The position numbers were made by a program, and so were the translations under genes. The notes beneath the pieces were generated by a model, which was given only the letters and a program-made list of their open reading frames with translations, was not told the DNA's origin and searched no databases. A stretch of 64,000 nt of DNA from an uncultured virus (IMG/VR IMGVR_UViG_3300012950_000001) (taxonomy: Duplodnaviria > Heunggongvirae > Uroviricota > Caudoviricetes). The stretch lies in the IMG/VR virus record IMGVR_UViG_3300012950_000001. One strand, 5' to 3'. Of this stretch, positions 12,201 to 33,632 are shown piece by piece; the first letter of the stretch is position 1, and each line of letters opens with the position of its first letter.

Positions 12201-13802
12201 GTATTAACTGTTGATACATCTAAGACTGATAACTTTGGTAAAGATCTAAGATTAACGATTCCAAATAACGTTGGTGTTATTAGTGCATTTAACACAATAC
12301 TACTTAACAGAGTACAGGGATTACCTAAGATCGATGCTTCTTCTGCTATTGTTTATGTTGGTTCTGGTGGAACTACGGTAGTTAATGGTGGTGCTATTAA
12401 GTACCTAAACACTGTAACTGATGGAGTACATTTCAGAGTAAGACATAATAATCATGGTATGTATTCAGTTCAGGATCAAGTTGAATTATTTGGAATTGAA
12501 CCAGATGTTAAACCAGAAAAAGTAACTGCTTCTTTTGATTCTTCAAGTACTTCGGATATTAAAGTATCTTCTGTAGGTATCTTTACTTCATTCGAGAATT
12601 TAGTAGTTGATAGTTCCAATCCAGGCTATGCTAATATTGGTAATGAGGTTATTCAATACACTGGTGTTAATACTTCTCAAGCTACTATAACTGGTATTAC
12701 TAGATCATTTGATACTACTAAGGCTGGCGACTATAACATTAATGATAAGATCTTTAAGTATGAATTAAATGGAGTTTCATTAAGAAGACTTAATACATCC
12801 CACAAATTCACTGATGTTGATCATTCTACATATCCAATTGATGTTGATCATTATTGGGTTAAAGTTGGAGTTTCAAGTCGTGGAGTAGATAGAGCAACTG
12901 GAAACTCTAGTGGATTCCCAGAATTACATTGGAAAGAAACTAAGTCTGGTGGTAGTTATGACCAACAATATGTAATGGTTGGTGTTCCATTCGGACCAAG
13001 AGCGACACAGAATATTCCATTCAATCTTGTTAGACCTAATGTTGGAACCCTTCAACCTGATGGAACAACAATTGATGCTAAGATAAGAACATTTAGTGGT
13101 AATAGTCCAGATGGTTCTTTAACTGCCTATGTTGATCAGGGATATGAACCAATATCATTGAATAGTAATAATACAATGAGTTCTCCAAGAATCGTTAGTT
13201 CTAAGATTAATGAGCTGAATAAGTTGGCAGATTTCCCTGGCAGGAAGTCATTCACTATGCAGTTCTTTATGAAGACTCAGGATTCAAAAGTAACTCCAAT
13301 GATCGACTTGGATAGAGTTAATCTTATCACAACAATGGATAGAATTAACTCCAAGGTTACTGACTATGCAAGTGATTTGAGAGTTAATTCTCTTGATGGT
13401 GATCCAAGTGCTGCAGTTTATCTTTCTAAGATTGTTAATCTTGAAAAGGCTGCTGATGGATTGACAGTCATGTTTGATGCATACAGACATGCAACAAATG
13501 ATATTAGGGTCCTTTATAGGATATTCAGAGTAGATGCTCCACCACAATATCAGTTATTTGAACTATTCCCAGGCTATGATAATTTAGATTCTAATGGTTT
13601 AATTATCAATAAGGCTAAGAATAACGGAAAACCAGATAGAAGGATTCTTTCTTCTTCCACTGAAGCTGACTATAAAGAGTATAAGTTCAGTATTGGAGAT
13701 CTACCTCAGTTTAATGGATTCCAAATTAAAATTATTATGAGTGGTACAAACTATGCGTTTGTTCCTAAACTCCGTGATTTGAGAGCGATTGCTTCTATCT
13801 AA
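6291..13802 (+). CDS. Large virion structural protein, VrlC/DUF4815-like
   Basis: PYFDDF...YQKVLFKPG..IQSRELT.LQS.LQNQ, APGADRF, RRTYDESGNY, GFFVDNF and DPLAQSF motifs; usual position after gp8 in cyanophages. Confidence 0.8.
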   Translation: MPQNTNLNSSPYFDDFNESKNYQKVLFKPGLPIQSRELTTLQSILQNQVEKFGKHFFKEGAVVVPGQLAYESDYTCVQIDDTHLGIPVSLYVENLIGKKVKGETSGVSAKVEGYIDNRTSTKGNYTLYIKYQSSSDTDFSRNRFSDGENLIVQEDVTYSLASIRSGSSFATTLISNATSVGSAAKIAEGVYFIRGFFVTVGSATVILDQYTNTPSYRIGLLIKEELVTASNTDNDLYDNARGFSNYAAPGADRFKISTTLVKKPLTDFNDENFIELMRIEDGKISKFVKESSYNLIRDELARRTYDESGNYYIKPFPVVAKECLNDRIGNNGSYYESQLTQQGNKPKENLMCLSIGPGKAYVRGYEVETLNTTTVDVPKPRVTETIENESIPFSVGRQVELNNVYGAPDVGISTTSYIHLYNKRTATPGTASGLHVGVARLYDMKLKNVAYSGADSTFESSLYDVQTFTYLNLNTAVTSLQVPQYIEGRSSNAAGYLYESVSGRNQLVLYQVVGEFQEGEEIWANGESISRSITRIDDYGMQDVFQFVGTGSTFTADPRLTLGHLIGPTATQFTVTAGSGGVSTVTSPNASFLNVGIKTGDVLSYSVPGNTTPSYGAINQITSGEIVIGQLTTVAGVCTGTLPSATVTTSDLYRTTLEVQNNSKAYLFAELTKPNIASVGLNNANVIFRKSYTISISNNAYSGTLESDSNLSLEPFDEEDYNLAFPGSGVVESLDNQKLTVSGRTATLSNLSTASGTAVLTVTWKKVNVKPKNKIFKRATQITIDKSKSSMAGIGATTNNNGLSFSSIYGTRVEDKRISLTVPDVAYVSAILESSSTAEPQLPALTLTNLNANILNTVQGETIIGKLSGASAILVENNGSNEVKFVQQNENSFQVGEEITFEESNVVADILSATPGDRDIRNNFEFDPGQRMDYVDFSAIVRKPGSEAPTKKLKVIYNNFVIENSDPGDFVTVNSYDDEIYSYGIPFVAGRPGADIIDLRPRATSAAAGRSPFEFNARLFDPFTSSSTHVVAKDKSMNVAYDYYLGRIDKLYLTKEGIFTLATGIPAIEPKIPNAIDNALEVATITLPPYLYDSSQAKLRLARYKRYRMKDISVIEDRLKNIEYYTALSLLESETANMSLRDPQTNLDRFKAGFFVDNFKSAVAGDVTNTQYKASIDAVSGRLRPQHYTTSIDLLLGSEAIVGAATSASPAADYRYVTDLGDANVKRIGDVVCLDYSDKVYLENKFATRIENVNPFAVVNWIGQIELNPSTDTWIETRRSTATYDIEGSYNGFMGMTGADSNTGLSPIDWGSWETTWTGSSSSTGPSVFSDTRTAMTGTTETRGEYGQGGRHGVPITTHTHFTDTTRNFREQTTTTTTNQTREGIQFRVGERFDTTSLGDKVVSTEVVATMRARNIEFVCRRLKPNTRLYPFFDNIDMQKYVVPKLIEIEMVSGTFGPGEVVEGSRPNTNNDAIRFRLANQNHKYGPYNSPTQTFKENPYSPSSSISSAYSSTATLLNVDTAALELQAASGFYGYITTGMKLIGQSSGAIANVKDIRLVTDKAGVLIGSLYLPDPTVPSAPTFNTGTKTFTLTSSSANSTISGFTDSSAETNFTSSGTLQNVEASTLRMRNADVQRIPQSSDRTLSDTDSRLVVDTSFNNRSTSQTRWVDPLAQSFEVPDINGVYLTKCDVFFRAKDTNQLPVTLQVRTLQTGLPTQDILPFGEVVLDPSEVVLSEDGSKATTFTFPSPVYLEGGGEYCLVLLSASNEYYVFISRMGEEDITTVNAADSEKIIVSSQPLLGSLFKSQNGATWDPSQLEDLKFNLYRADFTTETGRVNFYNPDLEIGNRQIVSLALNPIDMLEHNKVVGLANSLTSAQITGLTEGTTIYQQNNPNFSANLSKVLGAIGIGSALVLTNVGSGFTNSSIVYNNVPLIAQTGSGSGAEIKLHVNNRVGVAATVSIGGTGYSAGDVLTVDTSKTDNFGKDLRLTIPNNVGVISAFNTILLNRVQGLPKIDASSAIVYVGSGGTTVVNGGAIKYLNTVTDGVHFRVRHNNHGMYSVQDQVELFGIEPDVKPEKVTASFDSSSTSDIKVSSVGIFTSFENLVVDSSNPGYANIGNEVIQYTGVNTSQATITGITRSFDTTKAGDYNINDKIFKYELNGVSLRRLNTSHKFTDVDHSTYPIDVDHYWVKVGVSSRGVDRATGNSSGFPELHWKETKSGGSYDQQYVMVGVPFGPRATQNIPFNLVRPNVGTLQPDGTTIDAKIRTFSGNSPDGSLTAYVDQGYEPISLNSNNTMSSPRIVSSKINELNKLADFPGRKSFTMQFFMKTQDSKVTPMIDLDRVNLITTMDRINSKVTDYASDLRVNSLDGDPSAAVYLSKIVNLEKAADGLTVMFDAYRHATNDIRVLYRIFRVDAPPQYQLFELFPGYDNLDSNGLIINKAKNNGKPDRRILSSSTEADYKEYKFSIGDLPQFNGFQIKIIMSGTNYAFVPKLRDLRAIASI

Positions 13803-14008
13803 TGGATAAAATAAAAGTCCAAGATAGTACATCGCTTTATAGAGATGTTGAATCTGGTGCAATTCTTAATTGCTCGGATAGTGAATATGATAATTATCTG
13901 CGAATGAAAAATCAAAAACTAACAGAGAAACAAGAACTTGATAACCTAAAGGATGAAATGAATGAGATCAAGTCTATGTTGAACGTAGTTTTGAGTAAAT
14001 TGTCATAA
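13802..14008 (+). CDS. Small conserved cyanophage hypothetical protein (C-terminal coiled coil)
   Basis: TAATG overlap with upstream stop; L.RD..SGAI.N motif; heptad-like C-terminus. Confidence 0.75.
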   Translation: MDKIKVQDSTSLYRDVESGAILNCSDSEYDNYLRMKNQKLTEKQELDNLKDEMNEIKSMLNVVLSKLS

Positions 14009-14011
14009 ATA
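14004..14011 (+). promoter_or_regulatory. Late promoter variant (CATAAATA)
   Basis: 7/8 match to TATAAATA, upstream of the 14034 ORF. Confidence 0.55.
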
Positions 14012-14033
14012 ACTAAAATCTTCCTATTTCACT

Positions 14034-14366
14034 ATGACGGCAAGAAATGTCAATTTAGTTCTTGATCAAGGCGTAGATTTTGAAGCAACCTTTACTATTA
14101 AAAATAATAATAATTCGTCTTTGAATTTGACTGGCTATACTGCCGAATCTAAGATTAAGAAACACCCTGACGCTACAAAATTCAATGCTTTTGTTGTTAG
14201 TTTTCCTGATAGGATAAACGGACAAGTGAAAGTTGCTCTTGCTAGCACGATTACTACTTCAATAGAAGGTGGAAGATACGTATATGATCTCGTTTTGACT
14301 TCACCCAACTCATATAAAACAAGACCCATACAGGGAAATGTTTTAGTTATACCAGGCGTTTCATAA
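14034..14366 (+). CDS. Small virion structural protein (putative Ig-like baseplate/tail adaptor)
   Basis: NL..DQG.DF...F, LNLTGYT....I.K, GRYVYD, R..QG.V.V.PGV pattern typical of T4-like cyanophage structural proteins. Confidence 0.7.
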   Translation: MTARNVNLVLDQGVDFEATFTIKNNNNSSLNLTGYTAESKIKKHPDATKFNAFVVSFPDRINGQVKVALASTITTSIEGGRYVYDLVLTSPNSYKTRPIQGNVLVIPGVS

Positions 14367-15040
14367 TGGCAGATTATCTAGTTACCTTAAATCAACCTGG
14401 CGATTATAACGTTGGTGTTGATTATGAAATTCCTTCAAAATCGATTCAATACGGTAATATCGTACTGGATACTATTGCTGGAATGAATGGGATTGGTAAA
14501 ACATTCTCATTAACTGATCAAGGTGTTGCATACAGTCCAAATAACAATCAACAATTGATTGTATCCAAGAATAATTTACTTTTAAATCCAGCAACGGATT
14601 ATAATATTTCTGGAGATAAGATTGTATTTACAACTGCACCTACTGGTACTGATAATGTTTTCATGATCGCTTTGGCCGCTGCAGCGGATCTTACCCGAAC
14701 TGTAAATTATGTAATTGATAGTGGAACTACTCCAATGATTGCTGGAGATAAGGGTAGAGTAACTATAGATGTAAGTGGAAAGATCGAAAATGTACGAGTA
14801 TTGTGTGATCAAACTGGAGATATTGTTTTCGACATATCAAAAACTACTTTCCAAAATTTCCCAAGTTTCACTAGTATCACTCAAAATCAAAGGGTTCAGT
14901 TGCAATCAACAAATAAATACTTTGATGATGTACTAAATAACTGGGATACCACAATTGTTGCAGGAGACATCCTAAACTTTAACGTGGTAAGCGTGACTAA
15001 TATTAGAAGGTTACTAATCTCTCTAAAATTAAAATTGTAG
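14366..15040 (+). CDS. Putative baseplate-associated structural protein
   Basis: TAATG coupling; contains the module NG..K.F.L...N..L.P...Y.I.G.KIVFT..P also present in the gp7-like protein. Confidence 0.65.
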   Translation: MADYLVTLNQPGDYNVGVDYEIPSKSIQYGNIVLDTIAGMNGIGKTFSLTDQGVAYSPNNNQQLIVSKNNLLLNPATDYNISGDKIVFTTAPTGTDNVFMIALAAAADLTRTVNYVIDSGTTPMIAGDKGRVTIDVSGKIENVRVLCDQTGDIVFDISKTTFQNFPSFTSITQNQRVQLQSTNKYFDDVLNNWDTTIVAGDILNFNVVSVTNIRRLLISLKLKL

Positions 15041-15045
15041 AATAC

Positions 15046-15053
15046 TATAAATA
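15046..15053 (+). promoter_or_regulatory. T4 late promoter TATAAATA
   Basis: Perfect consensus in the intergenic gap, followed by a GAGGAG RBS and ATG 15096. Confidence 0.8.
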
Positions 15054-15095
15054 AGTATAGTTCTTAAAGTCTAACCCCTCAGAGGAGTTGTATCG

Positions 15096-16103
15096 ATGGC
15101 ATTACTAGTCCCTAATATTGGTGAAATTGAGTCACTCAGGTATCTGATAGCGCAAAATAATTTCGTTGCAGATCTAGAAGATAACTCACCTAGAAACCTT
15201 GTATTGAAACTCTTTACAAGTAACACCAACCCAGCTGAAGGGGACGTTCCCTCTGCAACTGCTTACTTTGAACCGTATATTGACGGTAACGTAAATGGTT
15301 ACGGAACTACCGCAAACACTGGATATCCAGTTTGCGTTAACAACAGGGGCGACCAAGATTACAACCAGCAGTACGGAATTCTGCTAAACGGATCGAGATG
15401 GGTTATTAAGAACGTTGGTAGTGGTACAACTGCTACATACCCAGAACAGACTTTCACATTCACGGGACCTGCTGGTAACATCTACGGATATTATGTTACT
15501 CGTGCAAACAACATGCCTGTCGCAGTACAAGGTGTTGTTCATTCCGCTAGTGTCGGCATCGGAACTACAGTTACTAAGGGTAACAACACAGACCCATGTA
15601 TTGGGGTTGTTGGTAACTCTTACATCACTATTGACCCACAGGTTAGTATCAATGATCTAACTCTTGGTCAGTATGTTGCAGGTAACGCAGGTATTCAGAC
15701 TGGAACTCGAATTATTGGTATTGATAGGTCGCTACAGGTCGTGTATCTGGATAAGGCACTTGTTGATAACATTCAGGTTGCTACTGACCCAAGTATTACA
15801 TTTAGTTTCGGTAAGATTTCTATTACTAACCACGGTCTGAAGAATGGTGACATTCTTTATGTCAACTCTGGTGCTGGTAATACAACTCTTGAGTCTAATG
15901 TTTATACTATCTTCGATGTACCTAATGCAGACGAGTTTGTAACAACTCCTGCAATGACTGCTACATCTAACGGTGTATTGGGACTTAATACTGCGACTCT
16001 CTACAGTTCAATCATGTACGCTGAGAGATTCACAAACGGACCTTACAACATTCAGAACAACGGTGACCAAATCAAGATTACCTTGAACGTCGCACTCGAC
16101 TAA
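15096..16103 (+). CDS. Putative virion structural protein
   Basis: Late promoter and strong RBS; LKLFT.N..P, YPEQTFTFTG..GNIYGYYV, AERF..GPY.I...GD.IKIT pattern; Thr/Gly/Asn-rich. Confidence 0.7.
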   Translation: MALLVPNIGEIESLRYLIAQNNFVADLEDNSPRNLVLKLFTSNTNPAEGDVPSATAYFEPYIDGNVNGYGTTANTGYPVCVNNRGDQDYNQQYGILLNGSRWVIKNVGSGTTATYPEQTFTFTGPAGNIYGYYVTRANNMPVAVQGVVHSASVGIGTTVTKGNNTDPCIGVVGNSYITIDPQVSINDLTLGQYVAGNAGIQTGTRIIGIDRSLQVVYLDKALVDNIQVATDPSITFSFGKISITNHGLKNGDILYVNSGAGNTTLESNVYTIFDVPNADEFVTTPAMTATSNGVLGLNTATLYSSIMYAERFTNGPYNIQNNGDQIKITLNVALD

Positions 16104-16110
16104 GAAACAG

Positions 16111-16118
16111 ACTAAATA
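16111..16118 (+). promoter_or_regulatory. Late promoter variant (ACTAAATA)
   Basis: TAAATA core in the intergenic region upstream of the 1569-aa gene. Confidence 0.45.
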
Positions 16119-16129
16119 TTCAATATGTG

Positions 16130-16161
16130 GGGTTTGCTTTATATCTAAGCAGACCCTTTTT
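16130..16161 (+). terminator. Rho-independent terminator
   Basis: Stem GGGTTTGCTT/AAGCAGACCC (one G-U) followed by TTTTT. Confidence 0.7.
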
Positions 16162-16179
16162 AATTATAGGAGGTAGTTC

Positions 16180-19100
16180 TTGACCGTATTCGTATATGAC
16201 AATACGAAGATAGATGAATTCGTTGGAATAGATCAAGGTTCGATCTTGACTTCTTCTTCGGAGAATATCGACTATGGCGATATAAATCAAACAGCGGTTA
16301 TTGAACGAGACGCAAATTATTTTAATGTAGATTATTGGGGTGAGATCAGATGGCTTGGTGATATAGTACCATTCGGCCCAATAAATGTAGTAGATGGAAG
16401 AGATGAGTTCGGTAGATCTAGATCTCAGGTCATCTTCCCAGCAGATAACACAGTATTATTCGACGTAGGTGCTGCGGCACTGACCAATCCTGTTAGACCT
16501 TGGATTGGTTCTGGTACAATATTCGAGATTGGTCATGGACTGGAAAGACTGGTTATACCAGATCTTGGAGCGGCTGGACCAGTTATCTTCAACACCACTG
16601 GTGTTGTTGATGAGTCATATTCAAAAGCGAATTATAAAGGCAACGGTGTTGGTCTGCAAATTAGCCAAACCGCAGCCACAGAATTAGATCAAGTTTATCC
16701 GTGGGATGGAACAGGTACGTTTAATGTATCTGGAGGAACAACAACTCCTGACCACGAAAGTTACCTCCCAGTAATTAAAAACGCTGCGAAGATTAAGGGT
16801 GGTAATAGAAGAAATTATCAGATTGATAGAGTAATATTTGATTATTCTCGTGACCCAAGAGAGACTTGGACACAGGATAATTACGGTTCAGTAACTACAA
16901 GACAAGGTTCTACATTTGGTAGTACATCACTATCATTTGATGATACTATTGAAGATGCTCTTGCTAAGGAAGTATCATTCAGTGATACTTCAGTAATAAC
17001 TGGAGATAATTACGGTTTAATAACAGATACACCAACATCCTTCAGAGACGATGGTGTAATAGAAAGGAAGTTTGGTGGTCAGATATCTCTACATGAGTAT
17101 CAGGCTTATGGTGTTGGTGCTGTTGAATCCAGACCATTCTTCTTCAATGGTTCAGGAAGTATATTCAAACTTGCTGAAGCAACCGATGTTGCTCAGACAC
17201 CAGTTGTTACTGGTTCTGGTACTATTAATGTTTCTGGAACCAACTGGTTCAGTCAGGCTCCACAAAGTACAGTATTTGGTGTTGGTGATACCGTTACTGT
17301 ATCTGGTAGTGCAGATGAGAGGTTCGTTCCTCAGACTCCAGAAGGTACAGTACTCTACAGTGTAACTGGTAACGCTGATACTGCAAGATCTAGAATTACT
17401 ACTGGATCTAGAAATCCATTCAGGATTACTGGATCTGTATCCGATATTAGTATTGTTACTGGTAGTGGTGATAAGTCTAATACCGTACTCTACAGTATTA
17501 GTGGTGGATATACCGATCTTAAGGCCGTTAAGGCAGATGGTAATATAAACCTCTTCGATATTACTGGAGGAATGACACAGGGCAAACCTGTATTCACTCC
17601 TTCTTGGTTCTCTCCTCTTGGAGATCAGGTTACAGAAGAACTGGATTGGGGTCAAATTGTTGCGACTCCAACTCAGCCTGCGGAAGATTGGGAAGTCATC
17701 AGGACAAACGACGAGACTATTCCAAAATCAGCAGAGAATTGGGGATATCTCCTTCCAGACTTCAACTGGGCTCAACTTGGAGGACAACATTATCCAAATC
17801 TGGATTCTCTCTCAACAGGAGAATCTTCTTGGATCAGACAGACTTCTGCTATTACAGAGACTGCGACATTCCTCCTTTCAGAGGATCCAGATGTTGCAGC
17901 TGCACTTGCTTGGGAATCTTCTGGAAAATCTGGTATTGCTACACACAATGCTGGTATATTCATATCTGGAGAACTCTGGTTATCACAGGCTCCACAACAC
18001 ACAGTATTCGGTGAAGAAGGTCAATTTACCATCAGTAGTACTGGTAATGAGTCTATCACTCCTTGGATTCCTGAAGGAAGTGGATCACTCTTTACTCTTG
18101 GTGGATCTGCTGAGGCTACTACTAAGGCACACCTACAAGGTGATTATCAGTACATTGGTGGTACTGCTGGTCAGGTCTTTAGTCCTGCTGTGCCAGGTAC
18201 TGGTTCTATTACCCTCAGTCAGGGTAGAGAGCCAGGTCAGACATACAGTAGAATCATTGATACACCAGAGTTGGCCTTTGGTGGAACCTTCAATATGGTT
18301 GGTCAGGCTCTCAGTCAGGCCTTCTTCGCATATAATACTTCCTCACTATTCGTTGGTCAGACCAATGAGGATTACGGTAATATTACTAATGATCCAGCCT
18401 TCGGTTGGGATCTCAATCAACTTGGTCAGGCTTCTGGTACTGAGACATTCGATGATGAGACTAACAAATATGACCAAGATGTTCTCTTCAGTAGTGGAGG
18501 TCTAACATACGACCAAGGATCTGGTGGTGTTACAGTTCTACCTTCCTTTGATAAGACTAATAGTTACTCTAGTGATCTTTCTACAACTGTTGTATCTCAG
18601 TCTTGGGGTATTCTTGGAGAACAACAGCTTGAACCTAGATCTGACGCTCAATATACTCAAGAGACTCCACACTTCACTGGATTCAAACATCAGAGTGAGG
18701 GTACTAGGAACGGACTTGAAGACTTTGGTTGGGTTAATGAGACTGCACCAACAGCGAACAGGTATCCATTCGAGACTCCAATCAAGATTGTTGATGCTTC
18801 TCCTCCTGCCAAGACTCAGTGGATTCCGAAGTATCACGGTTCTGGAACACTTATTGTTACTGGTCTTTCTACAGCTCCTGTTAGAGTTGCTGTTGCAAGT
18901 AGTAATACAACACTATTCGACTTCCAAGGTACAACTGCACCAGAGAAGTTTATTGCTCAGACTCCAGAGAATACTGTTCTTTACGATACCTCTGGTCTTC
19001 TTGTCGAAAGAACCACCAAGGATTGGGTTGGTCTTGGAACCATCACCCTCCAAAAACATCAGGGTGTTGGATTTACCACTTACAGAAGAATCATCTTCCC

Positions 19101-20889
19101 ACCATCAAGTGGTATTACAACTATCAGTGGTGCTTCAGTCGAGAAATGGAGTGGAGATCCTCCAGAAGGAACATACCTTCACATCTTCGACAATGGCCCG
19201 ATTTACGAGAAGGTTACTCTCGCAGCTCAGGCACAGAAGGTTACTACAAGACTCTACGGTACTCTGGAACATCCAGATATCGACTTCACACCCCATTATG
19301 GTATCGAAAGAAACATCGGTATCGAGACTGGAATTACATTATCGCCTGGTGGTGGTACGGACAGAACTACTGGTATTACAACTTCCAGCTTTATTCCGAA
19401 CTATCCAGGCGGTCAATCTGCTCTTGATGGACAAGGTGGAAAGACTCACGAAGTTATCAAGATCGATGGTCGTTCGATCTCCAGAACCAACGCTCCTATC
19501 AGTACTCACGGTGTTATCTACATTCTGGGTATTGGTACTGCTGGAAACGGTGTTGGAGGCCCAGACGAGAAAGGAGATCTCGATGGAGTCGAATTTGGTG
19601 CAAAAGAACGCTTTATACCTGCAACCGAATACGGTTTCGGGTCGATCATGTTCGACTTTACTGGAACGGCTCCATCCAGAGTCATTCAGGTATTTGGTTA
19701 TTATGGAGACGACAGAGATCCAGGCGCTGGTACAACTGGTCAAATCAGTATCAGGAACGAAGGTTCAGTTGGCTCTTCCGAGAAACTTACTGTTCAGGAA
19801 GTCGGAATATCCACTTACAACTTCAGTGGTGCATACTCAGATTTCAAATCTACATTTACAGAAGTTGGATCTGGATCTCTATACTCCATCGGTGGATCTT
19901 CAGAGAACGTTGCAGCTGCAGAACTTGTTGCTGGAACTTCCATATTCAATGGAACTGCACAAGAATCCTTCATTGCTCAGACTCCAGAGAATACTGCAAC
20001 GCTTACACTCTCTGGAACTGGAGATGCCTTCCGTCAGCGTATATGGGTTGGTACTGGAAATATCTCTCTCAGCAACAACATCAAGGTTGTTACTGGAATC
20101 AGAATTTCCTTGGCTGGAAATGGTTCTCTATTCGGATTCGGTGCTGCTGCAGAAGCAATTCCATATCAAGGATTTGCAAGTTCTGTTCTTGTCGATTTTG
20201 TTGGAGAGGCAGAAACAAGAGAGATCGCAGTTTATCAGGATCACGTTACATCTGGTATTCTTACATTCTCTGGTGCTCTTTCGCATCCACTCATCGACTT
20301 CACTCCTGCTCCAAAGGGATCTGGATTATTCACAGTTGGTGGTACTCTCGATCTCAAGGTATTCACCAGAGAAATTGGATCTGGTTCTGCTACGATTACT
20401 GGTGGATCGGATGTCAAATTCATCAGTCAGGCTGGCGAAGGAACAATTCTTTACGATCTCAAGGGTGCTTCGGCAATCACGAAACTCCATTGGGTCTATC
20501 AGGATTTCGTTACTTCTGGTATTGCTACAGTCTCTGGTCTTGGTGGGACAAAAGAGATTCAGAATTATGGATACTACGGAGACGACAGAGATCCAGGCAC
20601 ATCAGGAATTATTACGATCTCTGGAACACCTCTGGTACATCCAGATGTTCGTTACATTCCACATGTTGGAATTGGAGTCGCAGTTCTATACGATATCGGG
20701 GGAAGCTCTACCGAGAGAAGGGCTTGGGCTCCAGTATACGGAACAGGATCCTTCAAGAAATTTGCATCTCTCGATGAGGCATACGCAAGAACATCCTACA
20801 TTGCTAGTGGTCAAGTTAATATTAATGGTATCGCTCCAACTGAAATTCTGGTCTTCGAGGAAGGAAGAACCTACGTTGTTATTATTTAA
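16180..20889 (+). CDS. Large repetitive Gly/Thr/Ser-rich virion structural protein (fibre/tail-associated, function unknown)
   Basis: 1569-aa ORF; TTG start with SD AGGAGGT at 16168-16174; D[YW]G, AQTPENT, GYYGDDRDPG and HP.IDFTP internal repeats; lies in the structural cluster. Confidence 0.75.
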   Translation: MTVFVYDNTKIDEFVGIDQGSILTSSSENIDYGDINQTAVIERDANYFNVDYWGEIRWLGDIVPFGPINVVDGRDEFGRSRSQVIFPADNTVLFDVGAAALTNPVRPWIGSGTIFEIGHGLERLVIPDLGAAGPVIFNTTGVVDESYSKANYKGNGVGLQISQTAATELDQVYPWDGTGTFNVSGGTTTPDHESYLPVIKNAAKIKGGNRRNYQIDRVIFDYSRDPRETWTQDNYGSVTTRQGSTFGSTSLSFDDTIEDALAKEVSFSDTSVITGDNYGLITDTPTSFRDDGVIERKFGGQISLHEYQAYGVGAVESRPFFFNGSGSIFKLAEATDVAQTPVVTGSGTINVSGTNWFSQAPQSTVFGVGDTVTVSGSADERFVPQTPEGTVLYSVTGNADTARSRITTGSRNPFRITGSVSDISIVTGSGDKSNTVLYSISGGYTDLKAVKADGNINLFDITGGMTQGKPVFTPSWFSPLGDQVTEELDWGQIVATPTQPAEDWEVIRTNDETIPKSAENWGYLLPDFNWAQLGGQHYPNLDSLSTGESSWIRQTSAITETATFLLSEDPDVAAALAWESSGKSGIATHNAGIFISGELWLSQAPQHTVFGEEGQFTISSTGNESITPWIPEGSGSLFTLGGSAEATTKAHLQGDYQYIGGTAGQVFSPAVPGTGSITLSQGREPGQTYSRIIDTPELAFGGTFNMVGQALSQAFFAYNTSSLFVGQTNEDYGNITNDPAFGWDLNQLGQASGTETFDDETNKYDQDVLFSSGGLTYDQGSGGVTVLPSFDKTNSYSSDLSTTVVSQSWGILGEQQLEPRSDAQYTQETPHFTGFKHQSEGTRNGLEDFGWVNETAPTANRYPFETPIKIVDASPPAKTQWIPKYHGSGTLIVTGLSTAPVRVAVASSNTTLFDFQGTTAPEKFIAQTPENTVLYDTSGLLVERTTKDWVGLGTITLQKHQGVGFTTYRRIIFPPSSGITTISGASVEKWSGDPPEGTYLHIFDNGPIYEKVTLAAQAQKVTTRLYGTLEHPDIDFTPHYGIERNIGIETGITLSPGGGTDRTTGITTSSFIPNYPGGQSALDGQGGKTHEVIKIDGRSISRTNAPISTHGVIYILGIGTAGNGVGGPDEKGDLDGVEFGAKERFIPATEYGFGSIMFDFTGTAPSRVIQVFGYYGDDRDPGAGTTGQISIRNEGSVGSSEKLTVQEVGISTYNFSGAYSDFKSTFTEVGSGSLYSIGGSSENVAAAELVAGTSIFNGTAQESFIAQTPENTATLTLSGTGDAFRQRIWVGTGNISLSNNIKVVTGIRISLAGNGSLFGFGAAAEAIPYQGFASSVLVDFVGEAETREIAVYQDHVTSGILTFSGALSHPLIDFTPAPKGSGLFTVGGTLDLKVFTREIGSGSATITGGSDVKFISQAGEGTILYDLKGASAITKLHWVYQDFVTSGIATVSGLGGTKEIQNYGYYGDDRDPGTSGIITISGTPLVHPDVRYIPHVGIGVAVLYDIGGSSTERRAWAPVYGTGSFKKFASLDEAYARTSYIASGQVNINGIAPTEILVFEEGRTYVVII
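18952..19996 (+). repeat. 25-nt exact direct repeat ATTGCTCAGACTCCAGAGAATACTG (18952-18976 and 19972-19996)
   Basis: Read directly; 1020 nt apart, in frame (IAQTPENT). Confidence 0.9.
19705..20598 (+). repeat. 21-nt exact direct repeat GGAGACGACAGAGATCCAGGC (19705-19725 and 20578-20598)
   Basis: Read directly; 873 nt apart, in frame (GDDRDPG). Confidence 0.9.
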
Positions 20890-20892
20890 TTC

Positions 20893-20900
20893 TATAAATA
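20893..20900 (+). promoter_or_regulatory. T4 late promoter TATAAATA
   Basis: Perfect consensus between the 1569-aa gene and the 20934 ORF. Confidence 0.8.
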
Positions 20901-20933
20901 AATCAGAAGCATAACTATTTGACCTCTTGAAAT

Positions 20934-21392
20934 ATGACTAAGCAGGTTCAATTTAGAAAGGGTACAACCGCTGAACACTTTAACTTTACAGGTGCGTTAG
21001 CAGAAATTACCGTTGATACCGATAAAAATACCGCAGTTGTACATGACGGTGCAACGCCTGGTGGATTTGAACTTGCAAAAGCAAGATGGACATTTGTTAG
21101 CGGAAATTATACTGCTGGTACGAACCAGAAATATACTGTTGATTCTACGAACAGTCCAGCGGGATTCGATCTTACTCTCCCCACGCCTCGTGCGGTAGGA
21201 GACTGGATATGGGTGGAGGACTTTTCTAATTTCTTAAGTATTAACCCCATAAATATAGTATCACAATACTCATTTGAAAACGGACATTTGGTTCAGGCCT
21301 CATCTCCTTTTATTATGGATGTGTCAGGGGCATCAGTAACATTCATTTGGAATGGATCTCTGTGGAAGATATTCAATAACAGGAGTAGTTAG
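20934..21392 (+). CDS. Tail-fibre-associated protein: Mtd_N-like N-terminus plus T4 gp34-like repeat
   Basis: QVQFRKGTTAEH..FTGA.AEITVDTDK....VHDG.T.GG is the Mtd/hyaluronidase N-terminal type motif; C-terminal LTLP....GD.I...D....F..NP..I resembles the C-terminus of the 21830 fibre. Confidence 0.7.
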   Translation: MTKQVQFRKGTTAEHFNFTGALAEITVDTDKNTAVVHDGATPGGFELAKARWTFVSGNYTAGTNQKYTVDSTNSPAGFDLTLPTPRAVGDWIWVEDFSNFLSINPINIVSQYSFENGHLVQASSPFIMDVSGASVTFIWNGSLWKIFNNRSS

Positions 21393-21394
21393 AA

Positions 21395-21799
21395 ATGGCA
21401 CTAACCCTAAGTAATTCAATTTCTGGTGAATTTATCCCTTCAGAATCGTCGGGTTTTTTCACCTATGCTCTAAGAAGAGATGCAGAGCATATGCTCTACT
21501 TCTCAAAAGTTAGTGCTGCTGGAACAGAATTAGGAGAGTTCTATCGTTTGGATGGAACTGCTATACCAGAATTTGGTGATGGTGTAGATTATGGTTGTTA
21601 TGATGTCGGTGTTGGTAAAACATCTGTTATCCGATTGGATGTTGCTACCGAGAAAAAATCTTTAGATGACCCAAGTGATAAATATCAACAGATCCGCTTT
21701 GACAGAAGAAATCTGTACTATTACATAGATGATGACGGTTTCTTTGTCATAAGGTTCAATGGGCCAGATTATGATTATTCAACCATCGGACCAAAATAA
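21395..21799 (+). CDS. Conserved cyanophage hypothetical protein (tail region)
   Basis: Tightly packed ORF; YALRRD...LY and KYQQ.RFD.RNL.YYIDDDG.FV.R motifs. Confidence 0.7.
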   Translation: MALTLSNSISGEFIPSESSGFFTYALRRDAEHMLYFSKVSAAGTELGEFYRLDGTAIPEFGDGVDYGCYDVGVGKTSVIRLDVATEKKSLDDPSDKYQQIRFDRRNLYYYIDDDGFFVIRFNGPDYDYSTIGPK

Positions 21800-21829
21800 T
21801 CCCATTCAGATAATTAACTAGGAGAAACA

Positions 21830-24800
21830 ATGGCTGAGTTTAGACTTGGAAGAGTAAAATTCAACTGGACAGGTGATTGGGCTGTATCCAAGTCCTACCT
21901 GATCGATGACATCGTGAAGTTCGGTGGTAACACATATGTTGCTACATCGAATCACACATCGACGGCCAGCACATCGAATTTTTACGCAAACGATTTAGGG
22001 AACTGGAACGTTCATATCGAGGGCCTTGCACAGAAAGGTGCTTGGGCAACTGGTACTTACTATCGTGTCAATGACCTCGTTACCTATGGTAACGTGGTTT
22101 ATCGTGTGACAACGGCTCACACTTCAGAAGGAACTTTCATAGACAATACGAAAGTAACTCCATATGTCTCTGGATTTAAATCCGAGGGAGATTGGGCAAA
22201 TGGTGACGAGTATCAAGCAGGTGACGTTGTTAATTACAACGGATCTTCTTATGTTGCTTTAACAACATCTCTCGCAGGATTTCAACCTCCACAAAACTTA
22301 GGAGTCGCAACCGATCCTAATGCTAAGTGGACAATCTTATCAGATGGTCTTGCTGGTGCCGCTCTTACGTACTCCGAGAACTCTTATTATAGAGGTGACT
22401 TGGTTCAGTATGGTGGTAACATCTACCGTCATAAGATTGGTGTTACAACAAACGTTTCTCCATTACAGGTTGGTCTTGGATCAGTCGCTCCCGAATCATA
22501 TAATGGTGATGCAGTCTGGGATCTCCTAGTAAAAGGTTTTAATTTTGTAGGTAACTTCTCTACAACTTATACCTATCACCCAGGCCATCTTTCAAGATAT
22601 GGTTCAACTTCTTACCTATCAGTTGGTTCATCCCACATTAATGTAATTCCTACTGCTGGAATTGGAACATATTGGGAAGTTCTTGCTCAGGGTGATTCCT
22701 CTGGTGCGATGAACACCAAGGGTGACATCATTACATACAACTCAGGTAATGTAAGAATTGGTATTGGTTCTACAGGTTATGCTCTTGCAGTTCAAGCAAA
22801 CGGATTGCCAGGATACGAGATTGTAGGTAACCAAACAAGAATCTATTATGTTGACTCTGAAGACGGAGTTGATACAAACAACGGTCTTGCACCTAACTTG
22901 GCGTTTAAGACTATTAAGAAGGCTTGCGAAGCTGCACGTCCTCTAACAACTATTACTGGAGTTGATTACACTAGTGCAACTGGTGTTTCAACCGTTACGG
23001 CTCCTGGCCACGGACTACAAAACACTGGTACTTTCGTCCAGTTACAGGGTCTTGACTTTGAGTGTCTATCTGGAGGTAACGTATTCAACATTCTGGGTAT
23101 GGTAATGAACAAGGCAGTTGGTCTTGCGACTATAACTGCTATTGGTCTTGGTGGTGCTCCTGAAGTTTCTATCGGTGAAAAAGTTAGAATCAGGAAATTG
23201 AATGTTACTTATACTGGTTCTGCAAGATTCACACACCAATTCCAGACCGCTGCTACTGGTGCAGTTATCGCTGGTGGTAATTACGCTCATAACTTTATTA
23301 GTTGTGCTGCTAACGGTGTTCAAATCGTTGGTGGATCAAGTGTAACTCCAACAGGTTCTACATACGACCCTGCAAATGGTAACTTAGTACTAACACTGTC
23401 TGGTCATAGTCTATCAACTTCTGATAAACTTACCATTTCCGCTAACGCACTGACATTTACTTGTGCGATGAACGGTAATGCTTCTAACAAGACATATCCT
23501 CGTACAACTGACCCAACATACGGTCAACAGTTGAACATTACAGGAACAACAACAAATACCGTTACGGTTAACGTTGGTGCTTCTGCTCAGGAACTACTTA
23601 CACCGACTGCTGCTACCTACAACGAAAACACTGGTGATTTAACACTTACAATTGCCGCTCACGGTTTAACTGCTGGTACTGCAATCAAACTCGCTAACGA
23701 TGGATTAACATTCCGTTGTTCAATGGACGGTTATACAACCGATCACACATATCCAAGATCAAGTGATCCTAAGTATAACACTTCAATCGATATTACTCAG
23801 GTAACCACTAACACAATTACAATTAACGTTGGTGCGGCTGCTGCAAGTGCTACTATTACAGGTAAGTTCCCTGCTGTACATACTCAAGGTTCTTATGAGT
23901 TCCTAGTAACTGCTGTTCCTGATGCAAACTCTGTTGTATTGAACGTTGGTGTATCAACAGTTGATTACAACTACGCTTCTGGTGGTACTGGATTCGTTGG
24001 TCTAACTACAACCACATATCCTAGAGTTGTTTCCAAGTCTTACTTCGAGATTCTTGAAGTTCCCGACGGTGATACATTCAAGGTTAATGTTGGTGTTTCT
24101 ACTCAGGCTCACGAGTACGTAAGTGGCGGTACAATGACTGACTTGACACCTGCTATCCTGAAACTATCTGCTTCGCAGTTCTATGAGCAACTTCCAATTG
24201 TTGTTCCTCCTTACACTGCTATCGTAGGTAACGCACTTAGAGGTTCTCAGGTTCTACCTGCAACTGGTACATCTGATGATGGTACTACACCAAACAACAG
24301 GTCCCACATGTTCAAGATGTCTGACTCTACAACGATTCAGGCGATCTCCATGAAAGGAATGGAAGGATTCACATATGACTCTAACGCTCCTTGGCAACTA
24401 GACAATTCAAATATCAGAACTGGTATTGGTACAACTGCTTGCGGTATATTCGTCTCCTTCAACCCAGATTCTCCAATTAACGATAAATCACCATACGTTA
24501 AGGACTGTACTGCTTTCTCAGACAATGCTGCAGAGGCAGTTCCTCCAAGATTTGGTGGTGGTGCTTGTGGAGTACTCGCTGATGGTGGAGTACATAATGA
24601 AGGTGCAAAATCGATGGTATTCGATGCCTTCACACACGTCGCATCTGACGGTGCTGGATATGTTCTAGACAGAAGTGCAATCGCTGAGATTGTTTCCTGC
24701 TTCACATACTACGCCCGTTGGGGATACTACTCAGGTGGTGGATCAAGAATTCGTGGAGTTGGTGGTAACAACTCATATGGTGACTATGGAGTCATCTCTT

Positions 24801-26257: not shown

Positions 26258-26265
26258 TGTGATTC

Positions 26266-26282
26266 GGGAGGATCTTCCTCCC
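26266..26282 (+). other. Intergenic RNA hairpin (GGGAGG-atctt-CCTCCC) with no U-tract
   Basis: Perfect 6-bp GC-rich stem just after the fibre stop; possible mRNA stability or processing element. Confidence 0.45.
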
Positions 26283-26322
26283 ATTCTATTATGAATTATT
26301 AACCCCTTAAACAGGATTGTAA

Positions 26323-27105
26323 ATGGCAAGTTATCGATCATATAAAAAAGTAACGGCAGCTATGGTTCCTGATGGATCCATAAGTGTAGAGAAACTTGCG
26401 CCAGGTTCTGGTCCATCTTTTTGTGTAAAGCATATTAAAGGATCACCAAACTCATGTACGCCTGGTTGCTGCTGTAACTGGCAAGTACCATCAGGTGCTT
26501 CACGTATTACGTGGGAAGTTTGGGGTGCTGGAGGAAATGGACATGGATCATGTTCCTGCAACAGATGTCAGCACTACAGGGCTGCATCAGGTGGTGCATA
26601 CAATATTAAGACCATTCAGACTTCTGGTGGTTGTCAATATAGTGTATGTGCTGGAGGAGTTTATAGATGTTGTTCTAGGGAATGTAACGGTTGCGAAGGA
26701 TGTTCATCTTACGTAAATGGTTATAACTTATCCAACTTCTGTGCCAGAGGTGGTGCAAGAGGTTGTGCAAACACTGACTGGTCAAACCATTGTCACTCTA
26801 CTTGGTGGTGCTGCATGGCGCCAGGAAGTTGGGGTGGAGACTTTACCATGAGTGGTCACCAGGCACACTGGTCTGGTCACTGGAACTGTCATTGTGGTTC
26901 AACCGTTGGTAACGTTTGTTCGCCAGGAGCTCCGTTCCTTGCAATGGGTCAAGAACACAGAATGACTCACTGTTGGCAACGTTGTGGTTGCTGGACTGCG
27001 CCTTATGCAACAGGAGGCGGTGGGGCTTTAACATCCTACTGTGGTCGTTGTTGTGGTCAGGGTGGCCAGGGTGGATCTGGCGTTGTACGTATTACTTGGA
27101 TGTAA
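26323..27105 (+). CDS. Cys-rich glycine-rich-domain protein, paralogue 1 (putative fibre-tip/adhesin)
   Basis: WEVWGAGG.G ... GG.GG.G.V.I.W glycine-rich fibre-tip framework; 29 Cys in 260 aa by count. Confidence 0.7.
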   Translation: MASYRSYKKVTAAMVPDGSISVEKLAPGSGPSFCVKHIKGSPNSCTPGCCCNWQVPSGASRITWEVWGAGGNGHGSCSCNRCQHYRAASGGAYNIKTIQTSGGCQYSVCAGGVYRCCSRECNGCEGCSSYVNGYNLSNFCARGGARGCANTDWSNHCHSTWWCCMAPGSWGGDFTMSGHQAHWSGHWNCHCGSTVGNVCSPGAPFLAMGQEHRMTHCWQRCGCWTAPYATGGGGALTSYCGRCCGQGGQGGSGVVRITWM

Positions 27106-27114
27106 GGAGCAGAA

Positions 27115-27909: not shown

Positions 27910-27922
27910 GTAAGGAGAAACG

Positions 27923-28711: not shown

Positions 28712-28712
28712 G

Positions 28713-28859
28713 ATGTCAGATACTAATCCTACTAGTTACGACCCATCGACTGATCCTAGAATTACTAGGTCTACACCGTCGGTGGTAAATACCTCAACTA
28801 CTTACGATCCAAAACAGGATGCAAGAGTTACTCGTGTAGGTGTTGCAACAGATAAATAA
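28713..28859 (+). CDS. 48-aa peptide with internal duplication (not in the ORF track)
   Basis: ATG 1 nt after the upstream stop; MSDTNPTSYDPSTDPRITRSTPSVVNTSTTYDPKQDARVTRVGVATDK; ends just before a terminator. Confidence 0.6.
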   Translation: MSDTNPTSYDPSTDPRITRSTPSVVNTSTTYDPKQDARVTRVGVATDK

Positions 28860-28879
28860 AAAAAGTTCGAGATGGATCG

Positions 28880-28906
28880 GAGGGGTTACAACACCCCTCT
28901 TTTTTT
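28880..28906 (+). terminator. Rho-independent terminator
   Basis: GAGGGGT-tacaac-ACCCCTC followed by a T7 tract. Confidence 0.85.
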
Positions 28907-28915
28907 ATGTAAATG

Positions 28916-28923
28916 TATAAATA
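28916..28923 (+). promoter_or_regulatory. T4 late promoter TATAAATA
   Basis: Perfect consensus directly after the terminator, upstream of 28961. Confidence 0.8.
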
Positions 28924-28960
28924 AAAGGCGAAGGAGTAAACCCGAATAAATCCAATAAAA

Positions 28961-31735: not shown

Positions 31736-31737
31736 TA

Positions 31738-33543: not shown

Positions 33544-33632
33544 TGTGGTATGTGATTACTTGGACTGCAATTACAATGTTTGTATTGGTTCAATTAGGTG
33601 TTTTTAAGAAGAGTCACTGGAAGAAAAAATGA
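33543..33632 (+). CDS. 29-aa single-helix membrane peptide (not in the ORF track)
   Basis: MWYVITWTAITMFVLVQLGVFKKSHWKKK; TAATG overlap upstream and ATGA overlap downstream. Confidence 0.6.
   Translation: MWYVITWTAITMFVLVQLGVFKKSHWKKK

What the first reader, a model, noticed from the sequence alone, without database searches (positions are those of the whole stretch)
17576..20914. +1 frame of the 1569-aa gene stays open for ~3.3 kb with one interruption
Seen in sequence: the +1 frame has only one stop (18503-18505) between 17576 and its end at 20912-20914, giving the 295- and 796-codon ORFs in the track. A +1 stop needs NTA followed by a purine, or NTG followed by A. By hand count, 23 NTA codons here are followed by a pyrimidine and only one (CTA ACA) by a purine, although most codons in this protein start with a purine. 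The 5' part of the same gene and the neighbouring fibre gene have many NTA+R junctions. The +1 constraint continues through 18012-18905, where the +2 frame is full of stops, so the two frames are constrained separately. Each lone stop (18503 and 19425) could be removed by one synonymous change. The +1 frame ends 25 nt after the main stop and 19 nt before the next gene. Inference: +1-shifted ribosomes run to nearly the same endpoint, giving an alternative C-terminus or translational coupling.
Basis: partly seen in the sequence, partly recalled or inferred. Interest (0 to 1): 0.75.

Follow-up and report, generated by a model that had tools for sequence, protein, structure and literature searches.

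The report
Phage fibre-module gene purged of off-frame stops
A fast-evolving structural gene of a marine cyanophage has had stop codons removed by selection from its two unused forward reading frames, although those frames encode nothing conserved, which is the opposite of what is normally expected and is still unexplained.

Summary
In the 1569-codon gene 16180-20889, the +1 frame has one stop (18503) between 17576 and 20912. The +2 frame is also open: 18906-20775 holds 0 TAA, 0 TAG and 1 TGA on the sense strand, against 104 on the antisense strand.

Synonymous-codon shuffles rule out chance and codon usage. None of the 32 other long ORFs in the window shows the effect. In the complete S-SSM7 genome no other gene comes close; the two weaker outliers reach z -4.0 and -3.2.

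The pattern holds at homologous positions in all 38 relatives examined with 42% identity or more. There is no +1 stop in the last ~485 codons of 33 sequences.

The off-frame peptides are not conserved. There is no conserved off-frame start, slippery site, homopolymer tract or DGR.

My best reading (about 0.4): out-of-frame ribosomes are kept translating to the end of the gene, and the peptide does not matter. The benefit is not known.

Its coupling idea is weakened by a conserved late promoter right after the stop.

This scan has reported the same phenomenon on related DNA three times (e1-6238899, e1-6052903, e1-6098302). My literature searches found nothing in print.

The parts
16129..16157 (+). 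Terminator-like hairpin with a T-run, between the upstream gene (ends 16103) and this gene.
   Evidence: Consensus scan and the sequence read. Function is inferred only.
16168..16173 (+). AGGAGG Shine-Dalgarno motif, 6 nt before the TTG start codon.
   Evidence: Sequence read.
16180..20889 (+). Main gene, 1569 codons, TTG start. It is a fast-evolving uncharacterised protein of the baseplate/tail-fibre module and a homologue of S-SSM7 SSSM7_110.
   Evidence: Frame 0 is the coding frame throughout: position 3 is the least conserved. It has no Pfam family.
17576..18505 (+). +1 open stretch a (309 sense codons), ending at the TAA at 18503-18505.
   Evidence: Depletion is 1 stop against 6.9 expected.
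18503..18505 (+). Lone +1 stop (CTA ACA). It is shared by 17 of 33 relatives and absent from the others, including S-SSM7.
18506..20914 (+). +1 open stretch b (802 sense codons), running 25 nt past the main stop.
   Evidence: There is no +1 stop in codons 1080-1565 of 33 sequences.
17544..18014 (+). +2 open stretch a (156 sense codons). It is open at the homologous place across the family.
18906..20777 (+). +2 open stretch b. Together with frames 0 and +1 this makes all three sense frames open. It is interrupted only at 19425.
19425..19427 (+). Lone +2 stop (CTT GAT), specific to the window's lineage. Ten relatives have CTC here.
20893..20900 (+). TATAAATA, the T4-type late-promoter motif, in front of the next gene. 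It is conserved after the stop in 36 of 36 sequences.
   Evidence: That TATAAATA is the T4 late-promoter consensus is recalled knowledge.
20934..21392 (+). Next gene: a 152-aa tail protein with an Mtd_N domain (phrog_9648).

Best explanation
Stop codons in the two unused sense frames are kept out of this gene by purifying selection on synonymous codon choice. As a result, ribosomes that leave frame 0 go on translating to, or close to, the 3' end of the gene instead of terminating inside it.

What is selected is the open frame, that is, the fate of the ribosome and of what it releases. It is not an encoded protein.

Entry into the off-frames is probably spread along the gene, through spontaneous +1 and -1 slips and perhaps stray internal starts, rather than through one programmed site.

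The benefit is inferred, not shown. I favour two candidates:
- It avoids releasing truncated fragments of a multimeric virion protein that can still assemble and would poison assembly.
- It keeps ribosomes covering a 4.7-kb late mRNA.

Shown: stop-specific and frame-specific depletion; long-term conservation; unconstrained off-frame peptides; a gradient anchored at the 3' end; no dedicated start or slip signals.
Inferred: that ribosomes actually use these frames, and why that helps.
For: **The depletion is specific to stop triplets.**
- In codons 936-1532, a third-position T occurs 0 of 35, 0 of 27 and 1 of 58 times before AA, AG and GA. Before AC, AT, GC, GG and GT its share is 0.34-0.66.
- Of all off-frame codons, only the stops are strongly depleted: TGA 1 against 22.8, TAA 0 against 10.1, TAG 0 against 10.1. 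TGG is enriched.

**It is frame-specific, so it depends on reading frame.**
- In 17576-18905 the +1 frame has 1 stop and the +2 frame has 41.
- The antisense strand is normal, with 104 stops in 18906-20775.

**It is specific to this gene.**
- The 32 other ORFs of 200 codons or more in the window have z between -2.5 and +2.5, against -5.5 and -7.0 here.
- In S-SSM7, all 600-nt windows with 4 or fewer sense stop triplets lie inside the homologue.

**It is conserved.**
- I examined 51 of the 80 IMG/VR loci. All 38 with 42% identity or more have 0-1 +1 stops in the C-terminal part (one locus has 5) against 5-18 expected. They have 0-30 +2 stops against 42-78 expected.
- The open zones lie at homologous positions.

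**There is a gradient towards the 3' end.**
- +1 stop occurrences in 33 sequences: 558 in codons 1-329, 76 in codons 330-1079, and 0 in codons 1080-1565.
- The +1 frame reaches the gene end in 36 of 36 sequences.

**The peptides are unconstrained.**
- Off-frame identity equals the null in every zone, including the control zone.
- Synonymous variation is only slightly lower in the open zones (0.34-0.40) than in codons 1-330 (0.41).

**There is no single entry site.**
- No conserved slippery heptamer and no homopolymer tract.
- No conserved off-frame ATG with a Shine-Dalgarno-like motif, and almost no ATG at all in +2.

**The wider purge of +1 fits known error patterns.** +1 slips are reported as the commoner error in AT-rich genomes (PMC5909447, abstract read).
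Against: - There is no direct evidence that any ribosome reads these frames. Only assembled contigs were available, not raw RNA reads.
- The +2 open stretch at codons 455-610 ends in mid-gene at a conserved stop, which a run-to-the-end model does not explain.
- Lineage-specific stops break the frames while the downstream parts stay open: 18503 in 17 of 33 sequences, and clusters of +2 stops around codons 1080-1190 in several lineages.
- Selection per stop from spontaneous slips should be weak.
- The model does not say why this gene is affected and the neighbouring 1475-codon fibre gene is not (61 against 61.4 and 139 against 132).
- Density of internal Shine-Dalgarno-like motifs is ordinary.
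Confidence: 0.4

Rival explanations
1. Genuine overlapping protein-coding ORFs in +1 (at least ~500 codons) and +2. Their products would act through bulk composition (Leu-rich in +1; Arg/Ser/Trp/Cys-rich in +2), so their sequences would be free to drift.
For: - The ORFs are long, conserved and anchored at the 3' end.
- Where the window's lineage and its closer relatives have a first +2 stop, its position is shared: relative nt 1833-1836, and about 100-121 nt before the main stop in 28 of 36 sequences.
- Synonymous variation is slightly lower in codons 456-610 (0.341 against 0.412).
Against: - Off-frame amino-acid identity equals the null in all zones.
- The translations match no Pfam or PHROG family.
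- tblastn against 50,697 phage records finds only the same gene's off-frames.
- No conserved start codon or ribosome-binding site. The +2 frame of 18906-20775 holds only 2 ATG.
- The ORFs are broken at different places in different lineages.
- Upstream of the strict zone, stops are 15-fold depleted rather than at the normal density expected 5' of a fixed start.
Confidence: 0.12
2. Evolvability. Open off-frames let this host-range-type gene diversify through compensated frameshifts or out-of-register patch recombination without meeting a stop.
For: - The protein evolves fast. It is 67% identical between the window and L008, where the neighbouring genes are 84-96% identical at similar synonymous divergence.
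- 21 of 49 close pairs show paired gaps whose lengths are not multiples of 3. These lie 7-27 nt apart and net to a multiple of 3.
- One metagenomic contig shows +2 and -2 changes 9 nt apart.
Against: - Those short paired gaps cannot be told apart from alignment ambiguity.
- No longer frame-switched segment was found: 0 of 25 tblastn hits between homologues are off-frame at E <= 1.
- There is no cross-frame similarity elsewhere in the window.
- Second-order selection on each single stop would be very weak.
- The model predicts no 3'-anchored gradient and no reason for +1 to reach exactly the gene end.
Confidence: 0.15
3. Programmed frameshifting or transcriptional slippage at defined sites makes isoforms with alternative C-terminal tails.
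For: - Both off-frames open at about the same place (relative nt 1365-1397) in the window's lineage.
- The +1 frame ends near the main stop.
Against: - No conserved X_XXY_YYZ heptamer in the open zones. The only recurrent one is at codon 47, in 9 of 36 sequences.
- No A/T run of 6 or more.
- The 5' boundaries of the open zones differ between lineages.
- The tails are unconserved.
Confidence: 0.08
4. Strand-specific avoidance of the triplets TAA, TAG and TGA for a reason unrelated to translation, such as a nuclease or an RNA-binding protein that acts on the mRNA or on single-stranded DNA.
For: In 18906-20775 the triplets are missing from the sense strand in every register, while the antisense strand is normal.
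Against: - In 17576-18905 the same triplets are common in the +2 register (41) and nearly absent from +1 (1). The avoidance therefore follows the reading frame.
- TGG, TAC and TAT are not avoided.
- The effect is confined to one gene in 233 kb.
Confidence: 0.05
5. Chance, base composition, codon usage, or inheritance from duplicated stop-free repeat units.
For: - G+C is a little higher here (0.42-0.45 against about 0.36).
- The protein has degenerate internal repeats.
Against: - 0 of 2000 synonymous shuffles reach the observed counts.
- DNA repeats are only 40-44 nt motifs at 83-86% identity.
- The trait has persisted across lineages that differ at 30-45% of residues.
Confidence: 0.01

Closest known systems
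Ambigrammatic narnaviruses: a reverse ORF kept open over ~3 kb (PMC8316113 and PMC8155312, abstracts read; 10.1101/761890, search listing only).
   Same: - Stop codons are removed from a frame that is not the protein-coding one.
- The open frame is conserved.
- Analysis indicates no functional protein.
- Translation itself, possibly ribosome cover of the RNA, is proposed as the function.
   Different: - There it is the complementary strand of a small RNA virus, a separate RNA molecule with its own 5' end.
- Here it is the two other sense frames of one gene on a dsDNA phage mRNA, and the antisense strand is normal.
- Here ribosomes would have to enter by slipping or by internal starts.
- Here only part of one gene in a ~230-kb genome is affected.
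Ambush hypothesis (hidden stop codons): Seligmann and Pollock 2004 as cited in PMC8410138 (passages read); refined by Abrahams and Hurst 2018, PMC5909447 (abstract read).
   Same: It concerns selection on out-of-frame stop codons through synonymous choice. It is tested with the same kind of synonymous-shuffle null.
   Different: The sign is opposite. The hypothesis expects an excess of off-frame stops, especially +1 stops in AT-rich genomes. This gene has almost none.
Embedded same-strand overlapping phage genes, such as lambda Rz1 inside Rz in the +1 frame (recalled, not checked here).
   Same: A +1 ORF lies wholly inside a longer gene on the same strand.
   Different: - Those ORFs are short, have their own start, and encode a conserved functional protein.
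- Here the ORFs are 500-1250 codons long, lack a conserved start, and are unconstrained in sequence.
Programmed -1 frameshift in tail assembly chaperone genes, lambda gpG/gpGT type (recalled, not checked here).
   Same: A phage tail-module gene in which a second frame is read by shifted ribosomes.
   Different: That system has a conserved slippery site and a conserved, functional extension. Neither was found here.

Membership tests
Overlapping (dual-coding) gene | An alternative-frame ORF longer than chance allows, and conserved in relatives. | tested here: met
Overlapping (dual-coding) gene | Purifying selection on the second frame's peptide, seen as reduced synonymous change in frame 0. | tested here: not met
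   Off-frame identity equals the null in all zones. Four-fold-site identity and synonymous differences are about the same in open and closed zones.
Overlapping (dual-coding) gene | Its own conserved start codon and ribosome-binding site. | tested here: not met
   Only two +1 ATGs inside the open zones are present in 24 or more of 33 sequences, and neither has an SD-like motif upstream. There are none in +2.
Overlapping (dual-coding) gene | The product is detected. | not testable with these tools
   No raw RNA reads, ribosome-profiling data or proteomics were available.
Programmed ribosomal frameshift (gpG/GT or prfB type) | A conserved slippery sequence at the point of shift. | tested here: not met
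   No X_XXY_YYZ heptamer in the open zones occurs in 6 or more of 36 sequences.
Programmed ribosomal frameshift (gpG/GT or prfB type) | A stimulatory RNA structure or internal Shine-Dalgarno motif near the site. | not tested
   No candidate site was found to test. The density of internal SD-like motifs is ordinary.
Ambigrammatic (narnavirus-type) ORF preservation | Stops are removed from a non-coding frame by synonymous choice, with no constraint on the peptide. | tested here: met
Ambigrammatic (narnavirus-type) ORF preservation | The open frame lies on the complementary strand. | tested here: not met
   The antisense strand of 18906-20775 has 104 stop triplets. The longest antisense ORF is 167 aa.
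Phase-variable contingency locus | A hypermutable homopolymer or simple-sequence tract inside the gene. | tested here: not met
   The only run is G5 at 20698. TRF finds three short arrays, each of about two copies. A/T runs are avoided here as in other genes.
Diversity-generating retroelement target | A reverse transcriptase together with a template/variable repeat pair. | tested here: not met
   No reverse transcriptase among the PHROG hits of the 42 window ORFs scanned, of 50 listed, or in the 324 annotated features of S-SSM7. No long direct repeat in 14000-27000.

The most novel reading that the evidence does not exclude
This gene family is a sense-strand 'polygram'. On one dsDNA-phage mRNA, ribosomes in all three reading frames are deliberately kept translating, and it is translation itself that is selected, not any off-frame protein. 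The benefit could be ribosome cover of the message or control over what frameshifted ribosomes release. This would be the first such case outside the ambigrammatic narnaviruses, and a clear natural counter-example to the ambush hypothesis.
Probability: 0.35. Interest if true: 0.85.

Novelty: categorically new. Interest (0 to 1): 0.8.

Why it matters
Off-frame stop codons are usually treated as neutral, or as useful brakes on frameshifted ribosomes. Here one gene in a ~230-kb phage genome has had them removed for up to 3.3 kb, over a long evolutionary time, and no second protein explains it.

If off-frame ribosomes really do run through this gene, several things follow:
- Selection can act on the fate of mistranslating ribosomes strongly enough to shape thousands of synonymous sites.
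- This would be a DNA-virus counterpart to the narnavirus ambigram puzzle.
- Long conserved overlapping ORFs would be shown not to be genes by default.

The question can be tested in a culturable system: S-SSM7 on Synechococcus WH8109.

Tried and rejected
- **Whole genome of the window.** None is held. I used the complete S-SSM7 record instead.
- **Sequencing runs.** All 24 runs listed are kept as Logan contigs. Laying X5, X12, X14 and X19 gave strain variants only. It gave nothing on expression, strand, or rare insertions and deletions. The RNA-library contigs (X19) are 88-95% alike and cover short parts, so they do not show transcription. Neither 18503 nor 19425 appeared among the 40 differences listed; 80 more were not shown.
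- **Structure.** AlphaFold2 on residues 910-1569 with a 20-row alignment gave mean pLDDT 24.4, so I ran no fold search. phmmer against PDB sequences gave only E = 0.04 noise. The ESM Atlas had no usable hit.
- **Cross-frame homology.** None between homologues, within the window, or in the phage collection.
- **Off-frame translations.** No Pfam or PHROG family.
- **Internal initiation as the source of off-frame ribosomes.** SD-like motifs followed by a start codon are no denser here than in other genes, except for a small excess in 17545-18009.
- **Synonymous-conservation scan.** The lowest 15-codon windows, at codons 346 and 905, lie near where +1 and +2 open. They show only conserved GSGT/SQAPQ motif codons and no recognisable signal.
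- **Homopolymer avoidance.** It is general to the phage's genes, not special to this one.
- **Literature.** The searches found nothing on off-frame stop depletion in phage genes. The library covers only open-access papers and preprints.
Full report
**What the window is.** The window is the structural module of a T4-like cyanomyovirus. PHROG hits run from baseplate wedge proteins through tail-fibre genes to neck, terminase, sheath, tube, portal and capsid genes. The nearest cultured relatives are Synechococcus phages S-SSM7 and S-SSM6a, genus Lipsvirus, at about 67% nucleotide identity over this gene.

The gene in question is 16180-20889: a TTG start six bases after an AGGAGG motif, and 1569 codons. 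It has no Pfam family. It is the homologue of the hypothetical protein SSSM7_110. At least 366 relatives in the protein collection match its C-terminal part, and none of the 120 listed has a functional name.

**Checking the observation.**
- +1 stops are frequent up to 17573. After that only 18503 occurs before 20912.
- NTA codons from 17576 on are followed by a pyrimidine 23 times and by a purine once. The gene's 5' part has 21 of 40 NTA+purine and the fibre gene 39 of 65.
- The +1 frame ends 25 nt after the main stop and 19 nt before the next ATG.

It has no stop in 17544-18011, and only one (19425) in 18906-20774. The stretch 18906-20775 therefore carries 0 TAA, 0 TAG and 1 TGA in any register of the sense strand, against 35, 17 and 52 on the antisense strand. 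In 1-kb windows the rest of the window holds 25-89 sense stop triplets. The windows starting at 19001 and 19501 hold 1 and 0.

**Is it more than chance or usage?** I shuffled synonymous codons within each stretch, which keeps the protein and the stretch's own codon usage (2000 shuffles).
- +1 in 17576-20886: 16.6 +/- 2.5 expected (minimum 9), 1 observed.
- +2 in 18906-20775: 43.0 +/- 4.4 expected (minimum 29), 1 observed.

The effect is produced by codon context. In codons 936-1532, third-position T occurs 0 of 35, 0 of 27 and 1 of 58 times before AA, AG and GA. Its share before AC, AT, GC, GG and GT is 0.34-0.66. In the gene's first 330 codons and in codons 611-935 there is no such difference.

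Among all off-frame codons only the three stops are strongly depleted. Their one-letter neighbours (TGG, CGA, CAG, CAA) are enriched, and start codons are unchanged.

The bias is not genome-wide.
- The 32 other ORFs of 200 codons or more in the window have z between -2.5 and +2.5.
- In the complete S-SSM7 genome I examined 132 ORFs of 200 codons or more, two of which are the gene's own off-frame ORFs. The homologue stands out with z of -6.7 and -8.0. The next strongest are a fibre gene (+1, z -4.0) and one 341-codon ORF (+2, z -3.2).
- Every 600-nt window with 4 or fewer sense stop triplets lies inside this gene.

**Relatives.**
- S-SSM7 has no +1 stop at all for 3774 nt, and has patchy +2 openness.
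- Two scans of IMG/VR gave 87 loci in all. From the 80 of the second scan I analysed 51, those whose match covers all or nearly all of the C-terminal region. I left out 29 that were cut by contig ends or were near-duplicates.
- All 38 loci with 42% identity or more show the depletion in that region: +1 has 0-1 stops (one locus has 5) against 5-18 expected, and +2 has 0-30 against 42-78 expected.
- The 13 loci at 28-31% identity, which encode mostly ~1090-aa proteins (three are 1122-1800 aa), show little depletion. Some of these still lack +1 stops in their last ~400 codons.
- On a protein-guided map the zones lie at homologous positions. +1 is closed up to about codon 330 and then open to the end. 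+2 is open at about codons 455-610, closed at 611-935, and open at about 936-1530.
- The 18503 stop is shared by 17 of 33 sequences. The 19425 stop occurs only in the window's lineage.

**What it is not.**
- *A conserved second protein.* Frame 0 is the coding frame everywhere, since position 3 is the least conserved in all regions. The protein evolves fast: 67% identity between the window and L008, where neighbouring genes are 84-96% identical. I shuffled codon pairs among alignment columns with the same amino-acid pair. Off-frame peptide identity then matches this null in every zone, including the stop-rich control zone. Synonymous differences are 0.34-0.40 in the open zones and 0.41 in codons 1-330. 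The off-frame translations are 23% Leu in +1 and rich in Arg, Ser, Trp and Cys in +2. They hit no Pfam or PHROG family, and in 50,697 phage records they hit only the same gene.
- *A programmed frameshift or slippage site.* There is no conserved slippery heptamer in the open zones and no A/T run of 6 or more. No conserved off-frame ATG has a Shine-Dalgarno-like motif.
- *A record of frame switching.* 0 of 25 tblastn hits between homologues are off-frame. Gaps between close relatives are multiples of 3, or nearby pairs that net to a multiple of 3.
- *A DGR or repeat effect.* There is no reverse transcriptase, and only 40-44-nt motif repeats.
- *Register-blind motif avoidance.* In 17576-18905 the +2 register holds 41 stops and the +1 register holds one.

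**Anatomy that bears on mechanism.** In 33 non-redundant sequences, +1 stops occur as follows:

| Codons | +1 stop occurrences |
|---|---|
| 1-329 | 558 |
| 330-1079 | 76 (35 distinct alignment columns) |
| 1080-1565 | 0 |

If tolerated stops fell evenly over codons 330-1565, the chance that none of 35 columns lies in the last 486 of 1236 codons is about 3e-8. This is my own arithmetic and treats the columns as independent.

The +1 frame reaches the gene end in 36 of 36 sequences, with its stop anywhere from -11 to +67 nt. The +2 frame is strictest in codons 1190-1530. In 28 of 36 sequences its first stop lies 100-121 nt before the main stop.

So the requirement is anchored at the 3' end, gets stricter towards that end, and survives breaks further upstream. 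This fits many entry points and a premium on not terminating inside the gene. It fits poorly with a single ORF that has a fixed start.

Directly after the stop lies TATAAATA, in 36 of 36 sequences. I recall this as the T4 late-promoter consensus. The next gene therefore has its own promoter, which weakens the coupling idea. Upstream lies a terminator-like hairpin at 16129-16157.

**Best reading and rivals.** I put about 0.4 on selection that depends on translation but not on the peptide. Ribosomes that slip out of frame, +1 more often than -1 in AT-rich genomes according to PMC5909447 (abstract), are kept going to the gene end. The benefit is inferred. Either truncated fragments of a multimeric virion protein that can still assemble are avoided, or ribosome cover of a long late message is maintained.

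Points against this reading:
- There are no expression data.
- The mid-gene +2 open zone is unexplained.
- It is unclear why only this gene is affected.

Rivals:

| Rival | Confidence |
|---|---|
| True overlapping proteins acting by composition | 0.12 |
| Evolvability through compensated frameshifts | 0.15 |
| Programmed frameshift isoforms | 0.08 |
| Non-translational triplet avoidance | 0.05 |
| Chance or composition | 0.01 |
| Something not yet thought of | the remainder |

**Comparison with what is known.** The nearest analogue is the reverse ORF of ambigrammatic narnaviruses. There too stops are purged, the peptide appears non-functional, and translation itself is proposed to matter (PMC8316113, PMC8155312; abstracts read). 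That case concerns the complementary strand of an RNA virus. This one concerns both alternative sense frames of one gene of a dsDNA phage.

The finding is the reverse of the ambush hypothesis (PMC5909447 abstract; PMC8410138 passages). It fails defining tests for dual-coding genes, programmed frameshifts, contingency loci and DGR targets.

Five literature searches found no description of off-frame stop depletion in phage genes.

Earlier agents of this scan reported the same phenomenon on related DNA (e1-6238899, e1-6052903, e1-6098302). These are not independent evidence. What I add here:
- the register-specific context table;
- the homologous zone map;
- the 3'-anchored gradient over 33 sequences;
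- the conserved late promoter after the stop;
- the absence of start and slip signals.

**Limits.**
- The sequences are related, so counts over 33-38 relatives are not independent events.
- The alignments are MAFFT protein-guided.
- The shuffles keep amino acids and codon usage but not every higher-order context, so neighbouring genes and the rest of the genome serve as the control for that.

Noticed in passing
window 15046, 20893, 28916, 52579, 58965: All five exact TATAAATA motifs in the window lie on the + strand. At least four sit 38-50 nt upstream of a gene start (15096, 20934, 28961, 52617). They look like T4-type late promoters, although their number is not above chance (5 found against 6.9 expected).
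   Followed up: partly
window 16129-16180: A terminator-like hairpin with a T-run is followed at once by AGGAGG and a TTG start. The fibre-module gene may be expressed by read-through from the promoter at 15046, with a weak start codon.
   Followed up: no
window 26323-28708: Three tandem paralogues (260-264 aa, all phrog_4205). The 1-kb windows starting at 26001-28001 have fewer sense-strand stop triplets (25-37 per kb) than the 55-80 typical of most of the window. Per-gene shuffle z-scores are ordinary (-2.1 to +0.9).
   Followed up: partly
window 6291-13799 and 25-4650: The 2503-codon and 1542-codon structural genes avoid A4/T4 runs very strongly: 30 against 105.6 expected (z -9.5), and 14 against 42.0 (z -5.2).
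   Followed up: no
window 19662-19682, contig of run X14: One metagenomic contig differs from the window by a dense patch of substitutions, two inserted bases, and a 2-base deletion 9 nt downstream. It is either a short compensated frameshift or an alignment effect in a divergent patch.
   Followed up: no
L090 (GU071098.1) 22237-29235: The 2332-codon 'fiber' gene of S-SSM7 shows a mild +1 stop deficit (88 against 105.0, z -4.0) with a normal +2 frame. It is the only other outlier of note in that genome.
   Followed up: no
window 18933-20880: Motif repeats spaced 1020, 1014 and 873 nt apart (all multiples of 3) suggest that the stop-free 3' region is an ancient tandem duplication of a module of about 300-340 codons.
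   Followed up: partly
window 31732-40764: An auxiliary gene cluster lies inside the structural module: a carbamoyltransferase, two tandem tryptophan halogenase-like genes, heptose and nucleotide-sugar enzymes, and a cysteine dioxygenase-like gene. Part of the cluster is on the minus strand.
   Followed up: no
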